Assembly (NCBI GenBank): GCA_016780365.1
Contig: JADHMB010000004.1
Location: forward strand, 6,160-70,159
Source: Flavobacteriales bacterium
GTDB taxonomy: Bacteria > Bacteroidota > Bacteroidia > Flavobacteriales_D > Parvicellaceae
Direction: 5' to 3'
DNA: 64,000 nucleotides
Shown here: in pieces, positions 10,201 to 35,677 of the stretch
Layout: the number at the start of each line of letters is the position of its first letter
How positions within the stretch are numbered: position 1 is the first letter of the stretch
Translations under genes and position numbers: made by a program
The notes under the pieces: generated by a model
Seen by the model: only the letters and a program-made list of their open reading frames with translations
Database searches by the model: none
Told to the model about the DNA's origin: nothing

Positions 10201-10366
10201 TTATTACTTTTTAAGTTTTCTAAACTCAATACCATAACGACAAAAATATTTAATTATTCTTTTAAAATAGTATATCTCTTAATAATAAAGATGATTTAAT
10301 TATGTTGAAAATAAAAAAATTAAATCTATATAGAAGTATTTGTATTTTTACGCGAGATTAAATCAA

Positions 10367-11944
10367 ATGAAAAAAAAGTCAATTTTATTTATAATTACAA
10401 TCTTAATAATAAGCTGTAATAATTCTAAAAAAACAAAAAACTTTTTTTCTCCGTTGTACGGTGTCAATTCCTCCAATATATCCAGCAATTATATTTCTGG
10501 AAGCTATAGCGAAGATTCCATTTTAGTTACATTCAAAACCGAAAGTGATTTAAAATTAAAATTGATTTACAATCTAGATACAATTACAGGATCCAATGAA
10601 ATTACTTACCATTTAAAAAAATTAATTCCCAAGCTAATTAACATCCCAACAGCAATTGAAGATTACAGTAAATACGTAAATAATTGGAAAGCACCAATAG
10701 GTGAATTTTCTTCCTTTCATCAAATTAAGGTACTTGCACTAAAAAATAATATTATCGTGGATTCTTCAATTTATAATTATTTATTGGGTTTAAAATCCGA
10801 ACTTAAATTTGCAATTGTAAATTTAAAAGTTGATTCCAAAACTTTATTTGATGATGAAGAAGGATGCTATGTTCCAGGGAATAGTTTTAATAGAGAAAAA
10901 GACCAAACATCTGGAAATTTCTACAAGTTTAAAAAGAGAAAGCAAACAGGAAAAATTGAAATATTTAACAAAAAAGAAATATTTTTAAAGGGCAGTTTCC
11001 CTTTTAGAATTCATGGATATGTTACTCCTTTAGCACCTCAAAAAAGCCTCAGATTTTACATCCATCAAAAAAACAATGTAAATACTCTTTTAGAGCTAGA
11101 TCATCAAGTTGACAAAATTATTTTGAGGTCTTCTTTTTCTGGATGGGGAAACGAAATATTTGTCGATGGTTGGATTTCTAAAATATGTAAAAATTTAAAC
11201 GTAGATGTAATGAGCTACCAACCAGTTTTGGTTTATTTAAACGGAGAATACTGGGGAATTCATGGCTTGAGAGAGAGAATGGATCTAAAGGCAATTTCTA
11301 ATAAATATAAAACAAAAGAAAAAAAATTAATCGATGCGGATGACAAGGGTTATTCAAAAAAAGAGGGATATGGTGATTTGAATAGTTTACTTCTAGAAAT
11401 AAAGAAAAATCCAAAAACTAATTATGAAAAAATTGCCAAAAAATTCAATATGAGTTCGATTGTAGATTGGTTCATAATTGAACTATTCTTTCAAAATAAC
11501 GACTGGCCTTGCAACAACACTTTTTTTTGGAAAAAAAGAAGAGGCAATAAGCCTTGGAATGCTGTTTTGATAGATATGGATGCATGCGTAGGAAATCCGG
11601 AATTTAATATGTTTGATTATGTTCAAAGAGATTGGTCTCCAGCTTTAGGAGGAGAATTAATTAATTATTTACTAAAACAAAGTGAATTTGAAATGTTATT
11701 TACTAAAAGAGTTAATTATTTACTTGAAAATGAACTTTCATCAGAAAATTTAATGGCCAATCTTATAGAATTTAAAAAATCATTTTCACCAATGGTTGAA
11801 GAACACTATAGTAGATGGGGTTATAAAAATGGAACAAAAAAATATAAAAAGGGGTTGAGTGTTCTAGAAAAATTTTGTGTGGATAGACCTGAAAATTTTA
11901 AAAATAATATGAATCAATATTTTAAAAATATTTCTAATCTTTAA
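10367..11944 (+). CDS. CotH-family (atypical protein kinase fold) lipoprotein
   Basis: Lipoprotein signal MKKKSILFIITILIISC. CotH-like core: ..SLRFY..ILRSS.., VLVYLNGEYWGIHGLRERMD, and NNDWPCNNTFFWKK...PWNAVLIDMDACVG (acidic active-site region). The ORF track starts at a TTG at 10340. The ATG at 10367 gives a clean signal peptide. Confidence 0.7.
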   Translation: MKKKSILFIITILIISCNNSKKTKNFFSPLYGVNSSNISSNYISGSYSEDSILVTFKTESDLKLKLIYNLDTITGSNEITYHLKKLIPKLINIPTAIEDYSKYVNNWKAPIGEFSSFHQIKVLALKNNIIVDSSIYNYLLGLKSELKFAIVNLKVDSKTLFDDEEGCYVPGNSFNREKDQTSGNFYKFKKRKQTGKIEIFNKKEIFLKGSFPFRIHGYVTPLAPQKSLRFYIHQKNNVNTLLELDHQVDKIILRSSFSGWGNEIFVDGWISKICKNLNVDVMSYQPVLVYLNGEYWGIHGLRERMDLKAISNKYKTKEKKLIDADDKGYSKKEGYGDLNSLLLEIKKNPKTNYEKIAKKFNMSSIVDWFIIELFFQNNDWPCNNTFFWKKRRGNKPWNAVLIDMDACVGNPEFNMFDYVQRDWSPALGGELINYLLKQSEFEMLFTKRVNYLLENELSSENLMANLIEFKKSFSPMVEEHYSRWGYKNGTKKYKKGLSVLEKFCVDRPENFKNNMNQYFKNISNL

Positions 11945-11947
11945 ATT

Positions 11948-12781
11948 ATGGAAATAAATCAATTTGTAAAACTAGCAATTCAAGAAGACGTTAAGCAAGG
12001 CGACCACTCTACCCTTTCTTGTATACCAAAAAATAGTGTAGGTTCGGCAAAACTCCTAGTAAAAGAAAATGGAATCATTTCTGGAATTAATTTAGCTAAA
12101 GAAATATTTAATTGCTATGATCCAACTATTGATTTTAAAAGTATTTTAAAAGATGGACAAAAAGTAACTATTGGCGATGTTGCTTTTATCGTAAGTGGTA
12201 AATCTATCTCTATATTAACTATTGAAAGATTGGTTTTAAATGTAATGCAAAGAATGAGTGCTATTTCAACTTTGACTAATATGTATGTGGAAAAACTAAA
12301 AGGTTTGAATAGTAAAATTTTAGACACAAGAAAAACTACTCCTTTAAATAGGTTTTTAGAAAAACAAGCTGTTAAAATAGGAGGCGGTTACAACCATAGA
12401 TTTGGACTTTACGACATGATTATGCTTAAAGATAACCACATAGATTTTGCAGGTGGAATCCCACAAGCAATTAAAAAAACCAATAGCTATTTAAAAGAGA
12501 ATAAATTGGATATAAAAATTGAAATTGAAACTAGAAATTTAGAGGAAGTTAGAAAAGTTTTAGAGTGTGGAAATATACATAGAATAATGATGGATAATTT
12601 TAATTATCAAGATTTAAAAACTGGAGTTGAATTAATCAATGGTGTATATGAAACAGAGGCTTCCGGTGGTATAAATTTAGATACAGTAAAAAACTATGCT
12701 ATGTGTGGTGTTGATTATATTTCAGTTGGTGCCTTGACTCACTCCGTGAACAATATGGACTTGAGTTTAAAAGCAGTATAA
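11948..12781 (+). CDS. nadC: Nicotinate-nucleotide pyrophosphorylase (carboxylating)
   Basis: Motifs LDTRKTTP..R..EK.AV..GGG.NHRFGLYD..MLKDNHI and a C-terminal GVDYISVGALTHS. Length is 277 aa. Confidence 0.9.
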   Translation: MEINQFVKLAIQEDVKQGDHSTLSCIPKNSVGSAKLLVKENGIISGINLAKEIFNCYDPTIDFKSILKDGQKVTIGDVAFIVSGKSISILTIERLVLNVMQRMSAISTLTNMYVEKLKGLNSKILDTRKTTPLNRFLEKQAVKIGGGYNHRFGLYDMIMLKDNHIDFAGGIPQAIKKTNSYLKENKLDIKIEIETRNLEEVRKVLECGNIHRIMMDNFNYQDLKTGVELINGVYETEASGGINLDTVKNYAMCGVDYISVGALTHSVNNMDLSLKAV

Positions 12782-12788
12782 TAACTAA

Positions 12789-13355
12789 TTAAAGTCCTAG
12801 CATTTCATCTTTTAGACTGTCATCTGCAGGATTTCCACCAAGCCAAATACCAAAAAGTGCTTGTTTAAACTCTAATCCGTCAAATGTTCCTCTTTCTTTA
12901 TTGTTTTTGTATAAGTGAACAGCTTCGCCCTTATGGTAATTAAGAACAATTTCGTCTCCCTCTACAAAAGGATCACTTAAGAATTTTTTAAACTTGTCTA
13001 CATCAGATGAAGATGATTTTCCAGCGGTTGTATTAACAAATCCTTCCTCCAAAGCTTCAATAAATCTTTCTCTAGTAACTAATCCAGAAACAATAACAAT
13101 TCTAATTCCCATATTTTCATCTGCCATAACTATCTTATCAGCATCAGAAGATGTTTTATTTATGTATAGTCCTCCAACATACAAATCCATAAATCCATAT
13201 TTCTCTCTTAAACCTCCTCCGTTCAGAACAGTTTTTTCTCCGTTAATTTCTTGAACAGAATTGAATTCAACATCTTCTATTTTTTTTGTCTGAGCATTAA
13301 CAGTAAAAAAAGAAAGAACTATCGCAATTGAAAAAAGATATTTAAAAAAATTCAT
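12789..13355 (-). CDS. Secreted chalcone-isomerase-like family protein
   Basis: Signal peptide ending ..TVNAQ. The pattern LNGGGLREKYGFMDLYVGGLY is typical of bacterial chalcone-isomerase-like (Chalcone_3-type) proteins. Confidence 0.55.
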   Translation of the reverse strand: MNFFKYLFSIAIVLSFFTVNAQTKKIEDVEFNSVQEINGEKTVLNGGGLREKYGFMDLYVGGLYINKTSSDADKIVMADENMGIRIVIVSGLVTRERFIEALEEGFVNTTAGKSSSSDVDKFKKFLSDPFVEGDEIVLNYHKGEAVHLYKNNKERGTFDGLEFKQALFGIWLGGNPADDSLKDEMLGL

Positions 13356-13460
13356 GGTATGGGTTTTGATTGTTAATTTAGTAAGTAATTGATTCTAAAT
13401 TACATTATTTTTTTTCAATTTTAAATATTTACATTGAATTATGCTTAAAATAATATCGGA

Positions 13461-14147
13461 GTGACAACTTTTTTAACAGATAGTATAGAAAATGGAATAT
13501 GCTTTTTGACCGAAAGTGAATCTCGGCATGCCATAAAGGTTTTAAGAATGAAGAACAAAGACGAGTTATCAATTATAAATGGTAATGGACTGTATGGAAA
13601 AGGAGAAATTATCGATTCCAATCCAAAAAAAACAAAAATTAAAATCTATGAGCTAAAAGAAATTAAAAAGCCTGTTCCATTAGCTCTTGCATTTTGTCCT
13701 ACAAAAAATAGCGATAGAAATAAATTAATCATTGAAAAAGCTACAGAAATTGGTGTTACTGATTTTTTCCCACTTATTTCACAAAATTCTGAAAGGAGAA
13801 AATGGAATACAGAAAAGTTTGAAAAAATTTTAATTTCTTCCATTAAACAGTCGCAAAGGTTTTGGTTGCCAACAATTCATCCTGCAGGAAAATTTAACGA
13901 CTTCATAAAAAAAATCTCATACAAATTAAAGTTTCTAGCTCACTGTAAAGAAGGAGAAAAAATTCAACTAAAAAAAAATTCAAACTCTTTAGAATCTCAA
14001 GTTGTAGTCATAGGTCCAGAAGGAGATTTCACCTTTGAGGAAATAGAACTTGCAAAAGAAAATAATTATAAAATGATTAGTCTTGGAAATAACAGACTAA
14101 GAACTGAAACTGCTTGTATAGCAGCAGTAACACTAATGAAACTTTAA
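13461..14147 (+). CDS. rsmE: 16S rRNA (uracil1498-N3)-methyltransferase
   Basis: GTG start. Has a PUA-like N-terminus (ESRHAIKVLRM) and a SPOUT C-terminus (IGPEGDFTFEEIELAKENNYKMISLGNNRLRTETA). Confidence 0.85.
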   Translation: MTTFLTDSIENGICFLTESESRHAIKVLRMKNKDELSIINGNGLYGKGEIIDSNPKKTKIKIYELKEIKKPVPLALAFCPTKNSDRNKLIIEKATEIGVTDFFPLISQNSERRKWNTEKFEKILISSIKQSQRFWLPTIHPAGKFNDFIKKISYKLKFLAHCKEGEKIQLKKNSNSLESQVVVIGPEGDFTFEEIELAKENNYKMISLGNNRLRTETACIAAVTLMKL

Positions 14148-14154
14148 AAAAAAT

Positions 14155-15498
14155 TTATATACCTGTATAGTTGAAAGGAGTTATTTGATTCAACTCTGTT
14201 TTTAAATCTTCAGAAACATCCAAATTATCTATAAAAATTTTCATTGATTTTTCTGTGATTTTCTCATTTTTCCTTGTTAGATTTTTCAATAATTCGTATG
14301 GGTTTTTAACTCCCTCCCTTCTTAAAATGGTTTGAATCGCTTCTGCAACTACCGCCCAATTATTTTCTAAATCTTTTTCCATAGCATCGTTGTTTAGAAG
14401 AAGTTTATCCAATCCTTTTTGAGTAGATAAAATTGCAATAAGTCCATGGGAGAAAGGGACACCAACATTTCTAAGAACTGTACTATCTGTTAAATCTCTT
14501 TGTAGTCTGCTTACTGGAAGTTTAGCACTTAAATGCTCTAAAATCGCATTGGCAATCCCAATATTTCCTTCTGAATTCTCAAAGTCAATAGGATTCACCT
14601 TATGAGGCATGGCAGAAGATCCAATTTCTCCTTTTTTAATTTTCTGTTTAAAATAATCCATAGAAATATAGGTCCACATATCTCTGTTTAAATCCAATAT
14701 TATCGTATTTATTCTTTTAACAACATCAAATAAAGATGCCAAATGATCGTAGTGTTCAATTTGGGTTGTTGTTTGAGATCTTACCAATTTTAGTTTATCT
14801 ACTAAGAAATCGTTGGCAAATTTTTTCCAATCTATGGACGGGTAAGCAACATGATGGGCATTAAAATTTCCAGTTGCTCCTCCAAATTTACCAGCATGGG
14901 TTATGGATTTAAGGATTTCTAACTGTTGATTTAATCTTTCCACAAATACATAAAGTTCTTTGCCAAGTTTGGTTGGAGATGCAGGCTGACCATGGGTTTT
15001 AGCCAACATTGGAATAGAGGACCACTTACTGGAAAGAATTTCTAAATTCTTAATAAGATTATCAATCGCAGGTTGATATATTTTTTCTAATGCATCCTTT
15101 ATACTCATTGGAATAGCAGTGTTATTAATGTCTTGAGAAGTAAGTCCAAAATGAACAAACTCCTTAGCATCACCAATACCATCTTTCTCCATTCTTTCTT
15201 TAATAAAATACTCAACAGCTTTTACATCGTGATTGGTTATAGTTTCAATATCTTTTACTCTTTGGGCATCGCTATGATTAAAAACTTCGTAGTAAGATCT
15301 TAAAGTTTTAAAAAGGTTACTGTCAAAATTTTTTAACTGTGGAAGAGGTAATTCACATAAGGATATAAAGTATTCAATTTCTACTTTTACTCTATAACGA
15401 ATCAAAGAGGACTCAGAAAAAAAAGAACTAAGGACCTTTGTTTTGTTAAAATAACGTCCGTCAATAGGACTAATGGCATTCAATGAATAATTGGACAT
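14155..15498 (-). CDS. purB: Adenylosuccinate lyase
   Basis: 447 aa. Has SPIDGRY at the N-terminus, GLTSQDINNTA, and the fumarate-lyase signature GSSAMPHKVNP. Confidence 0.93.
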   Translation of the reverse strand: MSNYSLNAISPIDGRYFNKTKVLSSFFSESSLIRYRVKVEIEYFISLCELPLPQLKNFDSNLFKTLRSYYEVFNHSDAQRVKDIETITNHDVKAVEYFIKERMEKDGIGDAKEFVHFGLTSQDINNTAIPMSIKDALEKIYQPAIDNLIKNLEILSSKWSSIPMLAKTHGQPASPTKLGKELYVFVERLNQQLEILKSITHAGKFGGATGNFNAHHVAYPSIDWKKFANDFLVDKLKLVRSQTTTQIEHYDHLASLFDVVKRINTIILDLNRDMWTYISMDYFKQKIKKGEIGSSAMPHKVNPIDFENSEGNIGIANAILEHLSAKLPVSRLQRDLTDSTVLRNVGVPFSHGLIAILSTQKGLDKLLLNNDAMEKDLENNWAVVAEAIQTILRREGVKNPYELLKNLTRKNEKITEKSMKIFIDNLDVSEDLKTELNQITPFNYTGI

Positions 15499-15599
15499 AT
15501 CTATGTTTTAATATTGTAAATTTAACAATATGGTGGATAGTAAACTAAAATTATGACAATACCATTATATTTATTTAATTTTAGAAAACAATATTTCTT

Positions 15600-16970
15600 A
15601 TGAAACACCAAAAATTTATTTTCAAGCTAGTTCTATTATTTCTTTTAATATGCAATGTAAAATCAGTTTTATCGCAAGAGGAAGGTCTTTTAAACAAAAC
15701 TAAATCTCAAATAAAACTTACAGAAACAAAGCAACTTTATTTACAAGGAAATATTAAAACTGCTCTTTTAAATTACAAAGAGATTATTGCATTAAATCCC
15801 TCAAGCGCAAAAGCTCATTTCGGAATTTCAAGATGTTATTACAAATTACATGATTATAAAAAGGCAAAATACCATGCAGAAATTGCAGAAAAGAACGACC
15901 CAAAAGTAGATGAAGATTTACATTATTTAATGGGAGAAATTTACTTTAGACTAGAGGAATTAAAAAAATCTAAAACCAGTTATGAAAAATTTGTTTCTGA
16001 AATAAAATCTAAACAAAAAATAAAAGACTACTCGATTGATTTAAAAATTAGTCAATTGGCTTTTGCAGAGTTAGAATTGAAGAAAACAAATAATAAAATA
16101 ATTATTTCAAATATGGGTCCTGTTCTTAATTCTAAAGGATCTGATTTTGCACCATCGTTGAGCAATAATGGAAAATATTTAATGTTTACTTCCAGAAGAG
16201 CAGATACCAAAGGAGGAAATGTTGATCAGTATTTTGACCATCAGTATTTTTCAGATATATACTTATCTAAATGGGATAGTATTGGGGAAAAGTGGTTGAA
16301 TCCTTCCAACAAATTGGGGAAAATAAATACTGATTTTCACGATGCCTCTTTAAGTTTTAAAGCTGATAATTCCATAATCATTTACAGAAATATTCCATAT
16401 TTAACCAGAAGTGGAGATATTTATGAAGCTGCATACACAAAATCTGGTAGTTGGTCTTCTCCAAAACCAATTTTGAATAGAGATAAAAAAATCAGTAATA
16501 AAATAAATAGTTCCTATTTTGAAAGTTCTGCTAGTATTACAGAGGATGAATCTTATATATATTTTGTTTCTGAAAGACCAACTGGTCTAGGCAAAACAGA
16601 TATATATTATGTTAAAAAAACTAATAAAACTTATTCAGAACCAATTCACCTAGGGAACGAAATTAATACCATAGGAGATGAAAAATGTGTTTTTATTCAC
16701 CCTAGTGGAAACTTACTTTTCTTTACATCAAATGGAAGAAAACAAAGCGTTGGAAGTTACGACATATACTATTGTACCGGCGGACATGAAAATTGGAGTT
16801 CACCTATTAACATAGGAAGCCCTATTAATACTACCATGGAAGAAAAAACAATATGTATTTCAAAAGATGGAAATACTGCTTATGTAGGTGGCTATTATGA
16901 CTTCGATAACATGGGAGATGCTGATTTGTATCAAATAGATATATCTAGTCTGCAATTAATCTCCAAGTAA
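15600..16970 (+). CDS. Secreted TPR plus TolB/PD40-like beta-propeller repeat protein (no OmpA-like C-terminal domain)
   Basis: Has a Sec signal. TPR-like helices occupy residues about 40-130 (ALLNYKEIIALNPSSAKAHFGISRCYYKLHDYKKA...). Recurring PD40-like units follow (GSDFAPSLSNNGKYLMFTSRR, ESSASITEDESYIYFVSERP, EKCVFIHPSGNLLFFTSNG, DIYY). Confidence 0.6.
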   Translation: MKHQKFIFKLVLLFLLICNVKSVLSQEEGLLNKTKSQIKLTETKQLYLQGNIKTALLNYKEIIALNPSSAKAHFGISRCYYKLHDYKKAKYHAEIAEKNDPKVDEDLHYLMGEIYFRLEELKKSKTSYEKFVSEIKSKQKIKDYSIDLKISQLAFAELELKKTNNKIIISNMGPVLNSKGSDFAPSLSNNGKYLMFTSRRADTKGGNVDQYFDHQYFSDIYLSKWDSIGEKWLNPSNKLGKINTDFHDASLSFKADNSIIIYRNIPYLTRSGDIYEAAYTKSGSWSSPKPILNRDKKISNKINSSYFESSASITEDESYIYFVSERPTGLGKTDIYYVKKTNKTYSEPIHLGNEINTIGDEKCVFIHPSGNLLFFTSNGRKQSVGSYDIYYCTGGHENWSSPINIGSPINTTMEEKTICISKDGNTAYVGGYYDFDNMGDADLYQIDISSLQLISK

Positions 16971-17023: not shown

Positions 17024-18712
17024 ATGATTAATAAAATTGTCACATTTATGTTATTAGCTTTTTTCTTAAGTTCTTGTCAGGAAAATAAAAAACAAGCAAT
17101 CAACAGCTTTTCATTTAAAAAATCAATATTGAATATAGAAAATAATGAACTGGTTAATTTATATCTTGAAAGCGATACTATCAAAGTAAAAGTATTTAAA
17201 ACCCATGAATATATTTCCATTCATTGTAAAAATGGAAAAAGACTCTACAGGAAAAAAAAGTTTAGATTATACGCTCTTAATAATAGCAATGATTTAGAAT
17301 TAGCCCGATCAATTATTTCTTTTAATGAAGATTTAAAATCTAACGATCTCATTGGAGTTTATTCTAAATTAATTACCATTGAAAACAAAGATTATTTATT
17401 TCAGGAAGAAATAGGGAAAAGACTTATTGAGTCCAATTCAAAGAGAGAGGGTGTAATTTTCAAAATAGAAATTAACGATTCTCTTAGAGTAGGTACTACA
17501 AAAGGCGAAAATATACCTCCTAAATTTGTAAACTCAGTAAAAGAATTAGTCAAAACAGAAAGACTCAATAATAAATATTTTAATGAAATTGATTGGATAA
17601 AGTTTAAAGACCTATCCAAAAAATATTTTAAAAATTTAAATCCTAATTATTATTACCTAAACCCAGTAACTTTTCGGTTAGAACCAATTTTTTTCGGTAC
17701 GAAAGTAGCTGTTTTACCAACTCAAGATCCTGAAATTTACAGCCCTGAAATATCCTTAGATTTTTTAAAATATTTTAAATATTCTGAAGATTCAAATTCA
17801 GTTGTTCTTAAAAAAAGAAACACCATTATAAGAAATAAGATTATGATTCCAAAAGGACTTAAGGTTGTTTTAAAAGCAGGTGAGACCATTGACTTAACAA
17901 GTTCTGGTAGTATTTTATCCTATAGTGCTTTTAATATAAACGGAGAAATTGGTAAAATGGTGAAAGTAACATCTTCGGATAGCACTGGAGAAGGAATTCA
18001 TATCATTCAAAACAGCGACTCAAGTAAAATTAACTACCTAGATTTTTCCAATCAATTTTCCTTGTACGACACTTTGAAATATATTCACCAGAGCCTACCA
18101 AGTGCATTTACAGTATATGGTGGAAAAGTAACTATTGAAAATAGTGACTTTAAAAATCTAAAAAGTGAAGATGCTGTAAATTTATTTAGATGTGAATTTA
18201 AAATAGGAAATATTAAAATTGAAAATACATTTTCAGATGCATTTGATGCAGATTTTTGTGTTGGATTCTTAAAAAACTGCAGCTTTTTAAATTGCGGGAA
18301 TGATGGTGTTGATATTTCTGGTGGAAGATTAGAAATATCAGAAAGTAAGTTTTTAAATATTAAAGACAAGGCTATAAGTGCAGGAGAAGAAAGTAAATTA
18401 AAAGCTAGTAAATGTACCGTCCAAAATTCTTCTATGGGAATTATTTCAAAAGATTTATCAGTCGTTGAATCTATTGAAAATAAATTATTGGATTGTGAAA
18501 TTGGTTATTGTGCTTTTCAAAAAAAGGGAGAGTTTGGCCCTGCAGAGATTTTATCTACTAGTGATGAGATTACCAATTGTTCAGTAAATAATCTTATAGA
18601 GTACCATTCTAGTCTTACTTTTAATGGCGAAAAAGATAAAGTTTTTCAAAATAATGTAATAGATTATCTTTATGGTAAAAAGTATGGTAAAGCTACTTTT
18701 AAGAAAAACTAA
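17024..18712 (+). CDS. Lipoprotein with a degenerate CotH-like N-terminal region and a right-handed parallel beta-helix (PbH1-like) C-terminal region
   Basis: Lipobox MLLAFFLSSC. The C-terminal half shows periodic roughly 22-25 aa units (IENSDFKNL.., IENTFSDAFDADF.., LKNCSFLNCGNDGVDISGG.., ISESKFLNIKDKAISAG.., KCTVQNSSMGIIS..). The N-terminal segments KKFRLYALNNSNDLELARSII... and NPNYYYLNPVTFRLEPIFFG resemble CotH blocks, judged by eye only. Confidence 0.45.
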   Translation: MINKIVTFMLLAFFLSSCQENKKQAINSFSFKKSILNIENNELVNLYLESDTIKVKVFKTHEYISIHCKNGKRLYRKKKFRLYALNNSNDLELARSIISFNEDLKSNDLIGVYSKLITIENKDYLFQEEIGKRLIESNSKREGVIFKIEINDSLRVGTTKGENIPPKFVNSVKELVKTERLNNKYFNEIDWIKFKDLSKKYFKNLNPNYYYLNPVTFRLEPIFFGTKVAVLPTQDPEIYSPEISLDFLKYFKYSEDSNSVVLKKRNTIIRNKIMIPKGLKVVLKAGETIDLTSSGSILSYSAFNINGEIGKMVKVTSSDSTGEGIHIIQNSDSSKINYLDFSNQFSLYDTLKYIHQSLPSAFTVYGGKVTIENSDFKNLKSEDAVNLFRCEFKIGNIKIENTFSDAFDADFCVGFLKNCSFLNCGNDGVDISGGRLEISESKFLNIKDKAISAGEESKLKASKCTVQNSSMGIISKDLSVVESIENKLLDCEIGYCAFQKKGEFGPAEILSTSDEITNCSVNNLIEYHSSLTFNGEKDKVFQNNVIDYLYGKKYGKATFKKN

Positions 18713-18729
18713 AGGAACAAAGATTTTAA

Positions 18730-19497
18730 ATGTCTGATATTCATTCCATATTATTAAATTATAAACCCATAAGTTTAGCAGCTATGGATGAAGTTGCATT
18801 AATGGAAAGAGTGGATGAAAAATTTACAGTTTCCCTTGACAACACTTTAGAAGTTTTATCAAAAATTAGCGATAAATATTACTGTCTTGAAATAGATGGA
18901 AAAAGATTTTTCAATTATCAAACAGAGTATTTTGACAACGATAATAAAACACTATTTAAAAATCACCAAAACGGGAAGTTAAACAGATATAAAATTAGAT
19001 TTAGAGATTACATAGAGTCTAAGAAAACTTTTTTAGAAGTTAAATTTAAATCCAATAAAGGGGTTACTAAAAAAACTAGAATTGGTGTTCCTTTTAAAGA
19101 AAAGGAATTAAACAAAAAAAATATCAAATTTTTAGAGGAACAAACACCTTACTCCTTAAAGAATTTTGAAATAACAATTAAAAATAATTTTGATAGAATT
19201 ACCTTGGTCAATTTTCAAACAAAAGAACGTGTCACAATAGATTTAAATTTGAAGTTTAGTTCTGATAATTTAAATAAAGAATTAGAAAATATTTGTATTA
19301 TTGAGGTAAAGAGAGAAAAAGGAAATAGAAAGTCTGAAATACTCTCAATTTTAAAGCTTAAAAGAATTAGACCAACTATATTCAGCAAATATACTATTGG
19401 ATCTTGTATTTTAAATCCAAATTTGAAATACAATAATTTTAAAAGAAAACTATTATTCATTAATAAAATAAGCAAGAATGGAATTGTATGGAATTGA
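18730..19497 (+). CDS. VTC-domain (polyphosphate-polymerase-type triphosphate tunnel, CYTH-like) protein, soluble
   Basis: Has MERVDEKFTV near the N-terminus, YQTEYFDNDN, and the basic tunnel strand NRYKIRFRDY....FLEVKFKSNKGVTKKTRI, followed by IIEVKRE. No TM segments were seen. Confidence 0.75.
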   Translation: MSDIHSILLNYKPISLAAMDEVALMERVDEKFTVSLDNTLEVLSKISDKYYCLEIDGKRFFNYQTEYFDNDNKTLFKNHQNGKLNRYKIRFRDYIESKKTFLEVKFKSNKGVTKKTRIGVPFKEKELNKKNIKFLEEQTPYSLKNFEITIKNNFDRITLVNFQTKERVTIDLNLKFSSDNLNKELENICIIEVKREKGNRKSEILSILKLKRIRPTIFSKYTIGSCILNPNLKYNNFKRKLLFINKISKNGIVWN

Positions 19498-20080
19498 TTT
19501 TTTTAATTTAGAAGACTTTTCAAAGTTGTTATTCAAATTTGGAATAAACTTTATTTTTCTAATCATAATTGTAAGACTTATTTACTACAGAGTAAAAGAT
19601 GATAAAGATTATGTATTTACTTACATAATGTTCAATATACTTACTTTTTTCATTTGTTTTCTTCTAAGAAAAGTTCCTATGGAAATGGGATTTGCTTTGG
19701 GATTATTTGCAGTTTTCGGTATTCTAAGGTATCGTACAGAAGCCATTCCTATAAGACAAATGACTTATTTGTTCATTGTTATTGGAATTTCTATGATCAA
19801 TGCTCTTTCAAATAAATCCGTAAGTATTTTCGAGGTGTTGTTCTCCAATGGTTTAATTACCCTAATAACTTACTTAATAGACAGATTGTGGTTTCAAACT
19901 ATTGAGGAAAAGAAAAACATTGTATATGAGAAAATAGAACTTATAAAACCTGAGAATAAACAAGAGCTAATTAAAGACTTAAAAGAGAGAACTGGACTGC
20001 CAATTCACGAAGTAAAAGTAGATAAAATAGACTTTTTAAGAGACACTGCAGCAGTTACTATTTATTACAACCGAGACTAA
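19478..20080 (+). CDS. DUF4956-family multi-pass membrane protein
   Basis: Has 4-5 hydrophobic helices and the conserved-looking core GFALGLFAVFGILRYRTEAIPIRQMTYLFIVIGISMIN, then a soluble tail of about 60 aa. Its ATG lies 20 nt inside the end of the VTC gene. Confidence 0.7.
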   Translation: MELYGIDFFNLEDFSKLLFKFGINFIFLIIIVRLIYYRVKDDKDYVFTYIMFNILTFFICFLLRKVPMEMGFALGLFAVFGILRYRTEAIPIRQMTYLFIVIGISMINALSNKSVSIFEVLFSNGLITLITYLIDRLWFQTIEEKKNIVYEKIELIKPENKQELIKDLKERTGLPIHEVKVDKIDFLRDTAAVTIYYNRD

Positions 20081-20084
20081 AATA

Positions 20085-20651
20085 GTGAAGAAAATTATTT
20101 CAATTTGTATCTTTTGTTGGATGGTTTCGAGCTGCTCAACAGAGAAAAAAGAAATAATAAACCTATCTAATAATTATACAGCAATTGTAGAAATTCCAGC
20201 TGGCACCAATAAAAAGTTTGAATACAATTACAGTACCAAAACTTTTGAAATTGAAACCAAAAACGGAGTAGAACGCACTATAAATTATCTTCCATATCCT
20301 GGAAATTATGGTTTTATATCCAATACCTATATGGATCCTGAAATTGGGGGAGACGGAGATGCGTTGGATGTTTTAATTATTTCTGAATCTATTCAACAAG
20401 GAAAAAAAGTAGAAATAAACCCAGTAGCAATTCTAAGACTATTAGATCGTGGGCAAGAAGATCATAAAGTTATTGCCACTTTAAAAAATAGCAAAATAAA
20501 CTTTTCAAAGGACTCTTTACCAAGTTCTATGAAAACAATTATTAAAACTTGGTTTTGTAATTACAAAGGACCAAATAAGATGGAATTTATTGTTTGGGGT
20601 GACAAAAAAGATGCCATTGATGAAATTGAAAAATGGGCAGTAAATAAATAA
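20085..20651 (+). CDS. ppa: Family I inorganic pyrophosphatase, apparently with a lipoprotein signal peptide
   Basis: PPase motifs: EIPAGTNKKFEY, YPGNYGFISNT, GGDGDALDVLII, LLDRGQEDHKVIA, NYKG. With the GTG start at 20085 the N-terminus is KKIISICIFCWMVSSC (positive residues, hydrophobic stretch, VSSC lipobox). The alternative ATG at 20121 would give a cytoplasmic form. Confidence 0.8.
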   Translation: MKKIISICIFCWMVSSCSTEKKEIINLSNNYTAIVEIPAGTNKKFEYNYSTKTFEIETKNGVERTINYLPYPGNYGFISNTYMDPEIGGDGDALDVLIISESIQQGKKVEINPVAILRLLDRGQEDHKVIATLKNSKINFSKDSLPSSMKTIIKTWFCNYKGPNKMEFIVWGDKKDAIDEIEKWAVNK

Positions 20652-20727: not shown

Positions 20728-21921
20728 ATGAAAAATACAATTACTTTTTTAATATTAGTTTTATTTGCATTTCAGGTATCTGCCCAAACATCCACTGAGA
20801 ATGAAGAGAAAAACGAAAACTTGGTTCTTATAATTAAGAATAGTGGTGGAGAATACATAGGTGAAATAGTTTCTGATGATGGAAGAGAAATTCTTCTAAT
20901 CACAAAAACTATTGGAAAAATATACATAAATAAGTCTGAAATTTCTTCCATTTCTAAAGTAGATGAGAACGTAAAAAGTAATAAAAATGGGGAGTTTAGA
21001 GCATCTGGACCATTTACAACAAGGTATTATTTTACCAACAACGCTCTTCCTATTAAAAAAAATGAAAACTATGCTCTAGTTCATATTTATGGACCAGAAG
21101 TTCATTTTAGTGTAGGAAATAAAACCTCTTTAGGGGTAATGGCAAGTTGGATAGCAAGTCCAATAGGGTTGGTTTTAAAGCAACAAATATTTAGTAAAAA
21201 TAAATTACATGTTTCAGTTGGAAGTATATTGGGTTCTTCAGGATATATCAACCAAGGGCAGACCTATGGTGGTTTGCATTGGGGAACTATTACAATTGGG
21301 GACAGAACCTCTAACATAAGTTTTTCTGCAGGTTTGGCACATATTAATTGGCCTACCAACAATACAGATTTTATGAGCGGTGCTAGAGAAATTGGTGACA
21401 AATATTCCTATAGTTTTTACGACCAGGATCATCCATATCCTATAGCTGAAGACGATTGGAATGCGCAGATGGCTTTTGAAGATTCGTTGGGACTTTATAA
21501 CTGGAATTCTAATTTTAACGATAGATACCTTTACAGAAATCAACAGCTAGCTACAGTAATTGGTGTTTCTGGAATTGCTCCTATTGGAAAAAAAGCAAGC
21601 TTTATATTTGATTCTATGATTTTTATTGCAAACAAGGCAAAAGTAAATTATACTTCTAAGGAAAAAGAAATTACTTATGAGAGATACAATAATGCAACAG
21701 GAAATACGCAATTAACTAACTTTACGGCTGTCTATGGCGAGGGTGTAATTAGTCCTGAAACTAGCAGAAATATTACTTTTATATTGATGCCGGCTATGAG
21801 GTTCAATCAATCTTATGAAAAAGCATTTCAAGTTGCCTTGGCTGGATTTATTAATTACGATGAAATAAACGGGTTAAATTCTGCACCGGTTCCAATGATT
21901 TCTTGGCTAAGAAAATTCTAA
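20728..21921 (+). CDS. Secreted hypothetical protein, probable outer-membrane beta-barrel
   Basis: Signal peptide ending FQVSAQ. Amphipathic beta-like segments run throughout, and the protein ends in an aromatic residue (...SWLRKF), as in many OMPs. Confidence 0.4.
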   Translation: MKNTITFLILVLFAFQVSAQTSTENEEKNENLVLIIKNSGGEYIGEIVSDDGREILLITKTIGKIYINKSEISSISKVDENVKSNKNGEFRASGPFTTRYYFTNNALPIKKNENYALVHIYGPEVHFSVGNKTSLGVMASWIASPIGLVLKQQIFSKNKLHVSVGSILGSSGYINQGQTYGGLHWGTITIGDRTSNISFSAGLAHINWPTNNTDFMSGAREIGDKYSYSFYDQDHPYPIAEDDWNAQMAFEDSLGLYNWNSNFNDRYLYRNQQLATVIGVSGIAPIGKKASFIFDSMIFIANKAKVNYTSKEKEITYERYNNATGNTQLTNFTAVYGEGVISPETSRNITFILMPAMRFNQSYEKAFQVALAGFINYDEINGLNSAPVPMISWLRKF

Positions 21922-35590: not shown

Positions 35591-35605
35591 ATTATTTTAT
35601 TTTAG

Positions 35606-35677
35606 TAGCCCGTAGGGGAATCGAACCCCTGTTTCCAGGATGAAAACCTGGCGTCCTAACCCCTAGACGAACGGGCC
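35606..35677 (-). tRNA. tRNA-Glu (anticodon UUC)
   Basis: The hand-folded cloverleaf is GGCCCGU-UC-GUCU-AGGGGUUA-GGAC-G-CCAGG-UUUUCAU-CCUGG-AAAC-AGGGG-UUCGAUU-CCCCU-ACGGGCU-A. It has a 4-nt variable loop and a G1-U72 wobble, and CCA is not encoded. Confidence 0.9.

What the first reader, a model, noticed from the sequence alone, without database searches (positions are those of the whole stretch)
17024..20651. Tightly coupled beta-helix lipoprotein / VTC-domain / DUF4956 / lipoprotein-PPase block: candidate envelope polyphosphate-pyrophosphate system
Four co-directional genes are packed with a 17-nt gap, a 20-nt overlap and a 4-nt gap, which is what an operon looks like. The VTC domain is the triphosphate-tunnel catalytic domain of the eukaryotic Vtc4 polyphosphate polymerase. 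In yeast it works only when coupled to a membrane channel that translocates the nascent chain. Here a soluble VTC-domain protein with an intact basic strand (RYKIRFRDY...EVKFK...KKTR) is translationally overlapped with a 4-5-TM DUF4956 protein. That arrangement would suit a split polymerase/translocon analogue. The pair is bracketed by two predicted lipoproteins, which are extracytoplasmic: a beta-helix protein and a family I pyrophosphatase. Canonical bacterial polyP synthesis uses PPK1/PPK2, and to my knowledge no bacterial VTC/DUF4956 pair has an assigned function. From memory, VTC, DUF4956 and CotH genes tend to co-occur, and a real CotH gene lies about 5 kb upstream (10367-11944). I have not verified that co-occurrence.
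Basis: partly seen in the sequence, partly recalled or inferred. Interest (0 to 1): 0.72.

Follow-up and report, generated by a model that had tools for sequence, protein, structure and literature searches.

The report
Bacterial VTC–DUF4956–CotH-like envelope phosphate module
A marine flavobacterium carries a tightly packed four-gene block that pairs a yeast-type polyphosphate-polymerase domain with an unrelated membrane protein and two periplasm-facing lipoproteins (a hidden CotH-like/beta-helix protein and a pyrophosphatase), a conserved module whose chemistry is untested but which could be how some bacteria put phosphate polymers outside the cytoplasm.

Summary
Four co-directional genes lie at 17024-20651 with a 17-nt gap, a 20-nt overlap and a 4-nt gap, and Pfam confirms VTC, DUF4956 and family I pyrophosphatase.

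The VTC protein is closest in predicted fold to yeast Vtc4. It keeps the triphosphate/Mn contacts, including the Lys that separates active Vtc4 from inactive Vtc2/3. Two differences are Phe at the Tyr359 position and an extra invariant Asp.

VTC is followed by DUF4956 in 79 of 80 genome loci.

New here: the "beta-helix lipoprotein" has an N-terminal half that is a divergent CotH-family domain, apparently without the kinase Asp residues. Its roughly 860-aa relatives sit beside VTC and DUF4956 in unrelated genomes, once inside a Wzx/Wzy polysaccharide cluster.

The pyrophosphatase has a conserved lipoprotein signal and an intact active site. It accompanies the pair only in one Flavobacteriales clade. 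Two other sampled loci have Metallophos genes nearby, most with signal peptides.

Best reading, inferred and not shown: a split VTC-type polymerase/exporter supplies phosphate polymer to the envelope. Literature has noted the CotH-VTC-DUF4956 trio beside Gram-positive pel loci, with no assigned biochemistry.

Verdict: a new variant of a known kind, interesting but unproven.

The parts
17024..18712 (+). ORF1, a 562-aa lipoprotein (Cys18). It combines a CotH-like domain with a right-handed beta-helix.
   Evidence: ORF. Cys18 is nearly invariant in 27 homologues. The AF2 model has pLDDT 86. Top Foldseek hits are B. cereus CotH 5jda/5jd9 (E 5e-6), then AlgG and lyase-type beta-helices.
17096..17788 (+). 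CotH-like N-terminal domain of ORF1 (residues ~25-255). It is probably not a canonical kinase.
   Evidence: A profile of this domain finds 907 proteins (E<=1e-3) among 1.84 billion representatives. Seven of 10 sampled hits pass Pfam CotH over the same stretch. The bridging family hits both ORF1 (1e-12 to 1e-30) and canonical CotH. The canonical QNxD and WDxD Asp residues are not aligned to Asp in ORF1. Pfam CotH itself hits 0 of 27 family members.
17789..18658 (+). Right-handed beta-helix domain of ORF1 (residues ~256-545), with invariant acidic motifs FSDAFDADF, GNDGVDISGG and DKAISAGE.
   Evidence: The DSSP strand ladder runs over residues 259-533. PF13229 hits 7 of 27 family members, best E 8e-15. 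The same domain occurs at E ~1e-90 in 102 of 125 CotH-like relatives of ~860 aa.
18730..19497 (+). VTC-domain (triphosphate tunnel) protein, 255 aa, with no signal peptide. Predicted to be cytoplasmic.
   Evidence: PF09359 scores 77 bits. The AF2 model has pLDDT 91.7. The best PDB matches are Vtc4 3g3r and related entries, E 9e-13, TM 0.62.
19478..20080 (+). DUF4956 inner-membrane protein, 200 aa: five hydrophobic segments plus a ~65-aa C-terminal soluble domain. It overlaps the VTC gene by 20 nt.
   Evidence: PF16316 E 8e-55. Hydropathy and positive-inside counts over 78 homologues suggest N-out/C-in topology. GxxxGLFAxF..RYRT and MTYLF are invariant. It follows VTC in 79/80 loci.
20085..20651 (+). 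Family I inorganic pyrophosphatase with a lipoprotein signal (Cys17), 188 aa from a GTG start.
   Evidence: PF00719 E 5e-29, but far below the NCBIfam equivalog cut-offs. The signal peptide plus Cys is conserved in all 8 orthologues, including those with ATG starts. The catalytic Glu/Lys/Arg/Tyr/Asp set is present. Public gene calls disagree on the start: 188 aa versus 176 aa.
10340..11944 (+). Canonical CotH-family lipoprotein (likely start 10367). It is a separate transcription unit about 5 kb upstream.
   Evidence: PF08757 E 1e-36. The QNxD, N and D catalytic columns are invariant in alignment A3, whose profile hits PDB 5jd9 at 7e-27. The same relative position is kept in L004-L006 and L081.
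15600..16970 (+). TPR + PD40 beta-propeller protein (PorE/CHU_0125-like N-terminal part, without OmpA), 53 nt upstream of ORF1. It may be co-transcribed and is not core.
   Evidence: Pfam and NCBIfam hits are. It is present upstream of ORF1 only in the nearer relatives L001-L006 and not in L008, L009 or L013.

Best explanation
The block is a compact, lipoprotein-type version of a widespread bacterial module with three core parts:
1. a cytoplasmic VTC-type triphosphate-tunnel enzyme;
2. a DUF4956 inner-membrane protein whose gene is translationally coupled to it;
3. an extracytoplasmic CotH-family/beta-helix protein (ORF1).
In this Flavobacteriales clade a periplasm-facing family I pyrophosphatase is added.

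Most likely mechanism, all steps inferred:
- The VTC protein uses ATP and a divalent metal to extend a phosphoanhydride chain, as Vtc4 does.
- It docks on the cytoplasmic face of DUF4956 (the conserved RYRT loop and the C-terminal domain).
- DUF4956, probably as an oligomer, passes the chain across the inner membrane.
- In the periplasm, ORF1 binds or uses the chain on an envelope polymer.
- The lipoprotein pyrophosphatase hydrolyses pyrophosphate or short chains back to phosphate.

Shown here: domain identities, residue conservation, predicted location of each part, and gene linkage.

Inferred: polymerase activity, translocation, and the roles of ORF1 and the pyrophosphatase.
For: VTC enzyme:
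- VTC Pfam match and best fold match to Vtc4.
- K31, K88, R90, K105, R156, S219, K220 and E192 align to Vtc4 K200, R264, R266, K281, R361, S457, K458 and E426, and are 80/80 conserved.
- These are the residues whose mutation lowers polyP in yeast. K458 is the one residue lost in inactive Vtc2/3.

Linkage to DUF4956:
- VTC>DUF4956 is adjacent in 79/80 loci, overlapping in 51 and within 30 nt in 26.

Partner genes are predicted to be extracytoplasmic:
- DUF2490 barrel (47 loci), CotH (21), Cthe_2159 (7), ORF1 (9) and PPase (8). Most partners have signal or lipoprotein N-termini, against 3/80 weak matches for VTC.
- Some CotH partners carry T9SS tails.

ORF1 family:
- ORF1 is CotH-family.
- Its ~860-aa relatives lie in DUF4956>CotH-like>VTC operons in 4 of 6 sampled contexts, once inside a Wzx/Wzy cluster.

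Hydrolase partner:
- PPase here with a conserved lipoprotein signal; Metallophos genes near the module in two other sampled loci, three of four with signal peptides.
- From my own knowledge, this mirrors lumenal polyphosphatases of VTC-filled compartments: yeast Ppn1/Ppn2 are Metallophos, and trypanosome acidocalcisomal VSP1 is a family I PPase.
Against: - No activity has been measured for any bacterial VTC protein in the papers I could search.
- The Tyr359 position is Phe in the window and in 69/80 relatives. Y359F lowers polyP in yeast.
- An invariant Asp29 sits where Vtc4 has Thr198. This gives an RxDxK strand closer to the ExExK of hydrolytic tunnel enzymes.
- DUF4956 shows no detectable similarity to the VTC channel domain, and I could not model its structure.
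- There is no SPX domain.
- ORF1 lacks the CotH catalytic Asp residues by alignment, so it may only bind.
- The PPase link is confined to one clade.
- The S. intermedius authors suggested the polyP may stay cytoplasmic.
Confidence: 0.4

Rival explanations
1. The VTC protein does make polyP, but the polymer stays in the cytoplasm. DUF4956 is only a membrane anchor or regulator (an MgtC/ACT-like sensor, as proposed for S. intermedius SIR_1592). The envelope genes are linked to it only through shared regulation of phosphate or surface-polymer physiology.
For: The authors of the S. intermedius Pel study proposed cytoplasmic polyP because the other VTC subunits are missing. They describe the membrane partner as 4 TM plus an ACT domain. 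The C-terminal domain of DUF4956 is predicted to be cytoplasmic. No channel-like homology was found.
Against: Near-universal translational coupling to a polytopic membrane protein is not what a soluble storage enzyme needs. Nor is the constant company of secreted, lipoprotein or outer-membrane partners. No MgtC Pfam signal appeared even at E<=10.
Confidence: 0.2
2. The tunnel enzyme is a hydrolase, a tripolyphosphatase or exopolyphosphatase like E. coli YgiF or plant TTM3, and not a polymerase. The block is then a scavenging system. The periplasmic pyrophosphatase and ORF1 process external pyrophosphate or polyphosphate, DUF4956 brings short chains in, and the VTC protein cleaves them.
For: Invariant Asp29 gives an acid at the second position of the ExExK-type strand. 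Phe replaces Tyr359. YgiF and other hydrolytic tunnel enzymes are the next-best fold matches. The organism is an abundant marine flavobacterium, where phosphorus is often scarce. The PPase active site is intact.
Against: Vtc4/Vtc3/Vtc2 are clearly better fold matches than any hydrolase. The Lys458 equivalent, specific to the active polymerase, is 80/80 conserved. The module is common in gut and sediment Bacteroidales and lies next to polysaccharide synthesis genes, CotH and two-component systems, not phosphate transporters. The PPase is absent from most loci.
Confidence: 0.12
3. The module modifies an envelope polysaccharide or protein with phosphate. The exported chain, or a phosphoryl group derived from it, is the donor. 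CotH-family proteins are the transferases, and the beta-helix holds the acidic or glycan substrate. The pyrophosphatase removes the leftover pyrophosphate. This is a more specific version of the best explanation.
For: CotH is a proven kinase fold (PDB 5jd9/5jda). There is no ATP outside the cytoplasm, yet the CotH partners are secreted. ORF1-type genes lie inside or beside polysaccharide clusters. The trio sits next to Gram-positive pel loci, and mutants of the CotH and membrane genes lower Pel-dependent aggregation. ORF1's beta-helix resembles alginate epimerases and lyases.
Against: ORF1 and its ~860-aa relatives do not align an Asp to the CotH catalytic Asp. The window ORF1 has Gly at the metal-Asp position. 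No phosphorylated glycan is known for this organism. No kinase is known to use polyP outside the cell. The canonical CotH of this genome is not in the operon.
Confidence: 0.18
4. ORF1 and the pyrophosphatase are merely neighbours of the VTC/DUF4956 pair and have no shared function with it.
For: ORF1 and the PPase accompany the pair in only 8-9 of 80 loci. No + strand terminator or promoter signal could be resolved either way.
Against: The order ORF1>VTC>DUF4956>PPase, with gaps of a few nucleotides, is kept down to 43% VTC identity, while outer flanks change (L008, L009, L013). Distant ORF1 relatives are again next to VTC and DUF4956 in other gene orders.
Confidence: 0.05

Closest known systems
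Yeast VTC complex (Vtc4/Vtc3/Vtc1), the polyphosphate polymerase coupled to a membrane channel
   Same: Same Pfam domain and tunnel fold. Same triphosphate- and metal-binding residues, including the Lys458 equivalent. The catalytic domain is obligatorily paired with a membrane protein. In this block a phosphoanhydride hydrolase is predicted on the far side of the membrane.
   Different: The catalytic domain is a free 255-aa protein, not fused to a membrane domain. There is no SPX domain and no Vtc1-type 3-TM channel. The partner is DUF4956, which has no detectable similarity to that channel. Tyr359 is Phe and Thr198 is Asp. Sequence similarity is so low that neither the single protein nor an ordinary filtered profile search reaches Vtc4; only an unfiltered profile alignment does. 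Activity is untested.
cotH / 'polyphosphate polymerase' / DUF4956 accessory genes next to Gram-positive pel loci (S. intermedius SIR_1594, SIR_1593, SIR_1592; also C. perfringens NELoc-2)
   Same: The same three families are linked: a secreted CotH-family member, a cytoplasmic VTC protein and a polytopic membrane partner.
   Different: Here the host is a Gram-negative marine flavobacterium, and no pel genes lie in the 8-26 kb examined. The CotH-family member is a degenerate domain fused to a beta-helix lipoprotein. A lipoprotein pyrophosphatase is added. The S. intermedius authors reported not finding the trio outside pel loci. This survey finds it widely in Bacteroidota and other genomes.
Bacillus CotH spore-coat protein kinase (PDB 5jd9/5jda)
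   Same: The ORF1 N-domain has CotH as its best structural match and is joined to CotH by an intermediate family. One Glu (ORF1 E128) is invariant across all three groups.
   Different: Pfam CotH does not detect ORF1. The catalytic Asp (B. subtilis D228) and the metal Asp (D251) are not conserved by alignment. ORF1 is an extracytoplasmic lipoprotein, not a mother-cell coat protein.
Family I soluble inorganic pyrophosphatases (E. coli PPA type; acidocalcisomal VSP1 type)
   Same: Pfam domain and the full catalytic residue set are present. The best PDB relative is the S. acidocaldarius PPase, E 5e-14.
   Different: It has a conserved lipoprotein signal, so it is predicted to be extracytoplasmic. 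It has a 5-residue insertion before the DxDxxD motif. It scores far below the NCBIfam equivalog cut-offs (58 bits against 200).
Hydrolytic triphosphate tunnel (CYTH/TTM) enzymes, such as E. coli YgiF and Arabidopsis TTM3
   Same: Same superfamily fold; they are the next-best structural matches. An acidic residue lies on the first tunnel strand.
   Different: They are weaker matches than Vtc4/3/2. The window protein has RxDxK and not ExExK. It has the Vtc4-specific Ser-Lys pair and belongs to Pfam VTC.
PPK1/PPK2, the canonical bacterial polyphosphate kinases
   Same: They would make the same product from ATP, if the inference is right.
   Different: The folds are unrelated. PPKs are not coupled to a dedicated membrane partner or to secreted partner proteins. 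I did not test whether this organism also has a ppk gene.

Membership tests
VTC / Vtc4-type polyphosphate polymerase (PF09359) | Match to the Pfam VTC model above the gathering score | tested here: met
   77 bits against a cut-off of 23, covering 2-234 of 235 profile positions.
VTC / Vtc4-type polyphosphate polymerase (PF09359) | Eight-stranded triphosphate tunnel fold closest to Vtc4 | tested here: met
   The AF2 model has pLDDT 91.7. The top 12 PDB matches are Vtc4/Vtc3/Vtc2 (E 9e-13 to 2e-10, TMq 0.57-0.62), ahead of YgiF.
VTC / Vtc4-type polyphosphate polymerase (PF09359) | Basic triphosphate contacts K200, R264, R266, K281 and R361, plus S457 and Mn-binding E426 | tested here: met
   K31, K88 (Lys in place of Arg), R90, K105, R156, S219 and E192, all 80/80 conserved. 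The last two pairs were aligned by motif (iiEVK/vLEVK, FSKY/FSKF), not by the local HMM alignment.
VTC / Vtc4-type polyphosphate polymerase (PF09359) | Lys458, present in active Vtc4 and replaced by Ile/Leu in inactive Vtc2/Vtc3 | tested here: met
   K220 in the motif FSKY, 80/80 conserved.
VTC / Vtc4-type polyphosphate polymerase (PF09359) | Tyr359 (Y359F lowers polyP in yeast) | tested here: not met
   F154 in the window. Across 80 relatives the position is Phe in 69 and Tyr in 11.
VTC / Vtc4-type polyphosphate polymerase (PF09359) | Fused or associated Vtc1-type 3-TM channel domain and an SPX regulatory domain | tested here: not met
   The protein is a single 255-aa domain. The neighbouring membrane protein is DUF4956, with no other Pfam match at E<=0.01.
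VTC / Vtc4-type polyphosphate polymerase (PF09359) | Synthesis of polyphosphate from ATP | not testable with these tools
   This needs an enzyme assay. No paper in the searchable library reports one for a bacterial VTC protein.
DUF4956 (PF16316) | Match to the Pfam model; polytopic membrane protein with a C-terminal soluble domain | tested here: met
   185.6 bits against a cut-off of 30.6. It has five hydrophobic segments plus a ~65-aa tail.
Family I inorganic pyrophosphatase (PF00719) | Pfam match and the catalytic Glu/Lys/Arg/Tyr/Asp set (E. coli E20, K29, E31, R43, Y55, D65, D67, D70, D97, D102, K104, Y141, K142) | tested here: met
   101.5 bits against a cut-off of 23.5. All positions are occupied in the alignment with E. 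coli PPA and with 1qez. The E. coli sequence and the residue list come from my own memory.
Family I inorganic pyrophosphatase (PF00719) | Cytoplasmic housekeeping enzyme (NCBIfam equivalog) | tested here: not met
   57.8 bits against a cut-off of 200 for NF002317. The lipoprotein signal and Cys are conserved in all 8 orthologues.
CotH kinase family (PF08757), for ORF1 | Match to the Pfam CotH model | tested here: not met
   0 of 27 ORF1-family members match, even at E<=10.
CotH kinase family (PF08757), for ORF1 | CotH-like fold and transitive profile homology | tested here: met
   Foldseek top hits are 5jda/5jd9, E 5e-6 over 270 columns. The ORF1 N-domain profile finds Pfam-CotH proteins at E 1e-15 to 1e-10. 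The bridging HMM hits both sides. Direct hhalign gives only E 0.013.
CotH kinase family (PF08757), for ORF1 | Catalytic Asp (B. subtilis D228, QNxD) and metal-binding Asp (D251, WDxD) | tested here: not met
   In the three-way alignment the first falls on a gap. The second is Gly in the window ORF1 and Asp in 3 of 15 family members. The alignment in this region is uncertain.
Right-handed beta-helix (PF13229), for ORF1 | Parallel beta-helix repeats | tested here: met
   The window protein is itself below threshold, but 7 of 27 family members match (best E 8e-15). The model shows a regular strand ladder, and AlgG, lyase and GH28 structures match.
Pel-locus accessory trio (cotH / VTC / DUF4956) | Contiguity with pelDEADAFG genes | tested here: not met
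   Genes within 8-26 kb of the window are housekeeping: nadC, rsmE, purB, cinA-like and others. The rest of the window was not scanned for pel genes.

The most novel reading that the evidence does not exclude
Bacteria possess their own split analogue of the eukaryotic VTC machine. A free VTC tunnel polymerase docks on an unrelated DUF4956 pore and threads polyphosphate out of the cytoplasm. The exported polymer serves as the energy-rich phosphoryl source for secreted CotH-family enzymes that phosphorylate or cross-link surface polysaccharides. Lipoprotein pyrophosphatases or secreted metallophosphatases recycle the remainder.
Probability: 0.2. Interest if true: 0.9.

Novelty: new variant of a known kind. 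Interest (0 to 1): 0.66.

Why it matters
PolyP synthesis in bacteria is attributed to PPK1/PPK2, and VTC is treated as the eukaryote-type enzyme. Some bacteria are reported to secrete or accumulate extracellular polyP. To my knowledge no dedicated export route is known.

Secreted CotH-family kinases also pose a donor problem, because ATP is absent outside the cytoplasm.

A conserved, tightly coupled VTC/DUF4956 pair that always travels with secreted partners offers a concrete, testable candidate for both questions. It occurs in genomes labelled Bacteroidota in this survey, and in clostridia, streptococci and bifidobacteria according to the literature.

The finding that ORF1 is a hidden CotH-family protein unifies several things into one module:
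- this marine block;
- the Bacteroidales VTC-DUF4956-DUF2490-CotH operons;
- the DUF4956>CotH-like>VTC operons found elsewhere, one of them inside a polysaccharide cluster;
- the Gram-positive pel accessory genes.

If the VTC protein turns out to be a hydrolase instead, the module would still define an uncharacterised envelope phosphate pathway.

Tried and rejected
- **VTC against PDB by sequence.** The single protein and the 26-sequence profile gave no hit. hhalign of the profile against the single Vtc4 sequence aligned only the N-terminal third, weakly. I resolved this by retrieving the true Vtc4 sequence from PDB and running an unfiltered HMM alignment.
- **ORF1 against PDB by sequence.** The profile gave no hit. 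Full-length hhalign of ORF1 against the CotH alignment matched only the signal peptides.
- **ORF1 beta-helix against the Cthe_2159 beta-helix.** This family is found after DUF2490 in 7 loci. The comparison was not significant (E 0.21), so they are not the same family.
- **DUF4956 as MgtC-like.** This was claimed for SIR_1592, but no MgtC Pfam hit appeared at E<=10.
- **Third large homologue search, on DUF4956.** The listed top 120 hits were all >=96% identical. That left no usable alignment, so DUF4956 was not modelled and the translocon idea could not be examined structurally.
- **Downstream 397-aa secreted protein (20728-21921) as a DUF2490 analogue.** hhalign matched only the signal peptide. 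The gene is absent downstream in L004, L006 and L008, so it was rejected as part of the block.
- **Promoter and terminator scan.** Counts were at shuffle level, there was no + strand terminator, and sigma-70 consensus is not appropriate for Bacteroidota.
- **Rfam and tRNA scans.** Nothing was found in the block.

Full report
**1. Observation**

- 17024-18712 (562 aa)
- 18730-19497 (255 aa)
- 19478-20080 (200 aa)
- 20085-20651 (188 aa, GTG start)

They are separated by a 17-nt gap, a 20-nt overlap and a 4-nt gap.

Pfam gives these matches:
- VTC (PF09359): E 2e-21, 77 bits against a cut-off of 23.
- DUF4956 (PF16316): E 8e-55.
- Pyrophosphatase (PF00719): E 5e-29.
- CotH (PF08757): E 1e-36 for the gene at 10340/10367-11944.
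- Nothing for the first gene.

NCBIfam recognises the pyrophosphatase only far below its equivalog cut-offs, at 58 bits against 200.

The nearest genome records are uncultured marine Flavobacteriales, 'Bacteroidetes bacterium MED-G20' and Crocinitomicaceae MAGs. A contig of GCA_016777455.1 carries the same gene order.

**2. The VTC protein**

Neither the protein nor a profile of 26 homologues reaches any PDB chain by sequence. I therefore obtained the Vtc4 catalytic-domain sequence from PDB entry 3g3q. Residue number equals position plus 190, checked against 8i6v. I aligned it to an HMM of 80 bacterial VTC proteins with HMMER's filters off.

The alignment pairs window residues with Vtc4 residues as follows:

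| Window | Vtc4 |
|---|---|
| R27 | R196 |
| K31 | K200 |
| K88 | R264 |
| R90 | R266 |
| K105 | K281 |
| K115 | K294 |
| F154 | Y359 |
| R156 | R361 |
| R167 | R373 |

The C-terminal motifs iiEVK/vLEVK and FSKY/FSKF place E192 on E426 and S219-K220 on S457-K458.

The cryo-EM study of yeast VTC (bioRxiv 10.1101/2023.01.27.525886) reports three relevant points:
- The triphosphate is held by K200, R264, R266, K281, R361, K458, S457 and Y359, and Mn2+ by E426.
- Alanine mutants of these residues, and Y359F, lower cellular polyP.
- K458 is the only one of these residues that differs in the inactive Vtc2/Vtc3.

In the 80 bacterial sequences every one of these positions is invariant, with one exception. 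The Tyr359 position is Phe in 69 and Tyr in 11.

A second deviation is an invariant Asp (D29) where Vtc4 has Thr198. This gives an RxDxK first strand that lies between Vtc4 (RxTxK) and the ExExK of hydrolytic tunnel enzymes. The ExExK comparison is from my own knowledge of the CYTH/TTM family.

An AlphaFold model built on the alignment has pLDDT 91.7. Its best PDB matches are Vtc4, E 9e-13 and TM 0.62. Vtc3 and Vtc2 follow, and only then E. coli YgiF and CYTH-type proteins.

The protein has no signal peptide. It is therefore a cytoplasmic VTC-family tunnel enzyme with a polymerase-like active site that carries two changes of unknown effect.

**3. DUF4956**

The protein has five hydrophobic segments followed by a soluble tail of about 65 residues. 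Summed Lys+Arg counts over 78 homologues favour an N-out, C-in topology. That puts the invariant LRYRT loop and the tail in the cytoplasm. This is an inference from the positive-inside rule.

TM3 carries an invariant GxxxGLFAxF motif.

Pfam shows no second family, MgtC included, even at E<=10. My third large homologue search listed only sequences at least 96% identical in its top 120. The organism appears in many marine metagenome samples (TARA among the sources). I therefore had no alignment for a structure prediction and could not examine the translocon idea structurally.

**4. The pyrophosphatase**

All 8 orthologues found beside VTC/DUF4956 begin with a hydrophobic signal ending in Cys. 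This includes three that start with ATG. The GTG start at 20085 is therefore preferred over the internal ATG that some gene callers chose (188 aa versus 176 aa).

The catalytic set of family I enzymes is complete. The E. coli reference sequence and residue list are from memory. A clade-specific 5-residue insertion precedes the DxDxxD motif.

It is thus an active-looking pyrophosphatase predicted to be tethered outside the cytoplasm.

**5. The first gene is more than a beta-helix**

Its family is small, with 215 proteins at E<=1e-3. The lipoprotein Cys18 is nearly invariant.

The model (pLDDT 86) has two halves. Against PDB the best matches are the Bacillus cereus CotH kinase (5jda/5jd9, E 5e-6, 270 columns). 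Next come AlgG, polysaccharide lyases and GH28-type beta-helices.

Pfam sees Beta_helix in 7 of 27 family members but CotH in none. Direct profile comparison with CotH is weak, E 0.013.

I therefore searched 1.84 billion representative proteins with a profile of the N-terminal domain alone. It found 907 proteins at E<=1e-3. Beyond the immediate family these are mostly proteins of about 840-900 aa:
- 7 of 10 sampled pass the Pfam CotH threshold over the matched stretch.
- 44 of 125 are hit by my own canonical CotH model.
- 102 of 125 share ORF1's C-terminal beta-helix at E around 1e-90.
- An HMM of this bridging family hits both ORF1 (1e-12 to 1e-30) and canonical CotH proteins.

ORF1 is therefore a short, lipoprotein member of a 'CotH-like + beta-helix' family.

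A three-way alignment shows the following:
- One Glu (ORF1 E128) is invariant in all three groups.
- An NPxTxxxEPI motif is shared by ORF1 and the bridging family.
- The catalytic Asp of CotH (B. subtilis D228) falls on a gap.
- The metal Asp (D251) is Asp/Glu in the bridging family but Gly in the window ORF1.

ORF1's CotH-like domain is therefore probably not a canonical kinase. The alignment in that region is uncertain.

**6. Gene neighbourhoods**

A scan of one genome per GTDB species returned 80 loci. Most are labelled Bacteroidota lineages. Others are a complete Methanospirillum stamsii chromosome, a Heimdallarchaeota MAG contig and a Neomarinimicrobiota MAG.

VTC is followed on the same strand by DUF4956 in 79 of 80 loci, and the 80th contig ends in VTC. 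The genes overlap in 51 loci and lie within 30 nt in 26.

The order ORF1>VTC>DUF4956>PPase occurs in L001-L006, L008 and L009. L013 has ORF1>VTC and then ends. This is one Flavobacteriales clade reaching down to 43% VTC identity, and the outer flanks differ among its members.

Elsewhere the pair has other partners:

| Partner | Loci (of 80) | Position |
|---|---|---|
| DUF2490 outer-membrane barrel | 47 | follows the pair |
| Canonical CotH | 21 | usually follows DUF2490 |
| Cthe_2159 beta-helix protein | 7 | follows DUF2490 |
| Small CarboxypepD_reg-like lipoprotein | 18 | usually just upstream of VTC |
| LytTR two-component system | 10-11 | usually downstream of CotH |

By a crude N-terminal test most partner proteins have signal or lipoprotein leaders. 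VTC gave only 3 weak matches in 80, and LytTR regulators gave none. Two long CotH partners carry type IX secretion tails.

I then looked up six members of the ~860-aa bridging family on their contigs:
- L086 reads DUF4956>CotH-like>VTC, with overlapping stops and starts. It sits in the middle of a Wzx/Wzy-type polysaccharide cluster.
- L089/L090 have the same three-gene order.
- L091 inserts a Metallophos gene between the CotH-like gene and VTC.
- L087/L088 read PMT_2>CotH-like>VTC. On L087, DUF4956, two further CotH genes and three Metallophos/purple-acid-phosphatase genes lie within 10 kb.
- The remaining two are 5.5-kb contigs showing only sugar-modification genes.

The ~860-aa proteins have an N-terminal signal-anchor. 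Three of four Metallophos partners have signal peptides.

The ORF1-type protein is thus linked to VTC and DUF4956 independently of the window's clade. An extracytoplasmic phosphohydrolase also turns up near the module in other sampled loci.

**7. What is known**

- The trio cotH / 'polyphosphate polymerase' / DUF4956 was noted beside Gram-positive pel loci (bioRxiv 10.1101/768473).
- In S. intermedius, deleting the membrane gene (SIR_1592) or the CotH gene (SIR_1594) lowers Pel and aggregation. The authors note that SIR_1593 has a Vtc4-like fold and the required catalytic residues. They suggest the polyP may remain cytoplasmic, and they report not finding the trio outside pel loci (PMC12345266; preprint).
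- C. perfringens NELoc-2 has VTC, a gene annotated 'tubulin/FtsZ' that is probably DUF4956, and CotH genes (PMC2879425).
- A 2025 review still treats VTC as the eukaryote-type enzyme (PMC12526157).
- I found no paper assigning an activity to a bacterial VTC or DUF4956 protein.

**8. Interpretation**

Established here:
- the domain identities;
- the conservation of a Vtc4-like active site;
- the predicted sidedness of each part;
- a very strong linkage of VTC with DUF4956, and of both with CotH-family and other secreted proteins.

The simplest mechanism that uses all of this is a split analogue of the eukaryotic machine. A cytoplasmic polymerase feeds a phosphate chain through DUF4956 to the envelope. 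There CotH-family/beta-helix proteins use or hold it, and a tethered pyrophosphatase (Metallophos elsewhere) recycles the ends.

From my own knowledge, VTC-filled compartments in eukaryotes also contain such hydrolases. Yeast vacuolar Ppn1/Ppn2 are metallophosphatases, and trypanosome acidocalcisomes have a family I pyrophosphatase that acts on short polyP.

I put this reading at about 0.4, because no step of the chemistry is shown and two active-site positions differ. The rivals are:
- cytoplasmic polyP with DUF4956 as anchor or regulator (0.2);
- a more specific phosphoryl-donor model for extracytoplasmic CotH enzymes acting on surface polymers (0.18, overlapping with the best reading);
- a hydrolase/scavenging system (0.12);
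- mere adjacency of the flanking genes (0.05).

**9. Verdict**

It is not categorically new, because the gene trio is in the literature. The Gram-negative lipoprotein variant, the hidden CotH-family identity of ORF1, the pyrophosphatase partner and the breadth of the VTC>DUF4956 coupling go beyond what I could find published.

I rate it a new variant of a known kind, with interest 0.66.

Noticed in passing
window 20085-20651; L081-L083: Public gene calls disagree on the pyrophosphatase start. The NCBI record gives 188 aa from GTG, while Logan assemblies give 176 aa from an internal ATG that removes the signal peptide. Cross-species conservation of the signal plus Cys favours the long form.
   Followed up: yes
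L056 (Methanospirillum stamsii chromosome NZ_CP176366.1) 9908-11373; L047 (Heimdallarchaeota MAG contig) 3465-4902: The VTC>DUF4956 pair also occurs in a complete methanogen genome, preceded by a 611-aa secreted IPT/TIG-domain protein. It also occurs on a contig binned as Heimdallarchaeota. The short MAG contig could be mis-binned.
   Followed up: partly
window 10340-16970 and L004-L006, L081: The canonical CotH lipoprotein is followed by housekeeping genes: nadC, a chalcone-isomerase-like gene, rsmE, purB and a TPR/PD40 protein. The CotH, TPR/PD40 and ORF1 spacing recurs in relatives with 62-69% VTC identity (full order seen on L081), so CotH stays about 5-7 kb upstream of the block without being in the operon.
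   Followed up: partly
window 15600-16970: The TPR + PD40 protein resembles the N-terminal two thirds of PorE/CHU_0125-type envelope proteins but lacks their OmpA-like C-terminus.
   Followed up: no
window 7115-9358 (-) and 9355-10200 (-): A 747-aa protein whose C-terminus looks like a type IX secretion sorting domain overlaps a 281-aa PASTA-like protein by 4 nt. The pair runs divergently from CotH and is syntenic in L004 and L006.
   Followed up: no
window 20728-21921: A 397-aa secreted protein with no Pfam match ends in an aromatic residue, as outer-membrane barrels often do. It is present downstream of the block only in the closest relatives.
   Followed up: partly
L087 1-13331 (GCA_964352085.1): This locus packs three CotH-family genes, DUF4956, VTC, three Metallophos/purple-acid-phosphatase genes, a PMT_2 glycosyltransferase and a sulfatase-family gene. 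It is an unusually rich version of the module and worth separate study.
   Followed up: no
L089 10549-13644: Two VTC genes of 221 aa lie on opposite strands within 3 kb of each other, next to DUF4956 and the CotH-like gene. This recalls the duplicated VTC genes of C. perfringens NELoc-2.
   Followed up: no
window 35605-35677 (-): A single tRNA-Glu(UUC) gene is the only Rfam or ARAGORN hit in the window.
   Followed up: no
window 19478-20080: The listed top 120 clusters (of 7,867 hits) for the DUF4956 protein are all at least 96% identical and come from many marine metagenome samples (TARA among the sources). The source organism therefore appears widespread in marine metagenomes.
   Followed up: no
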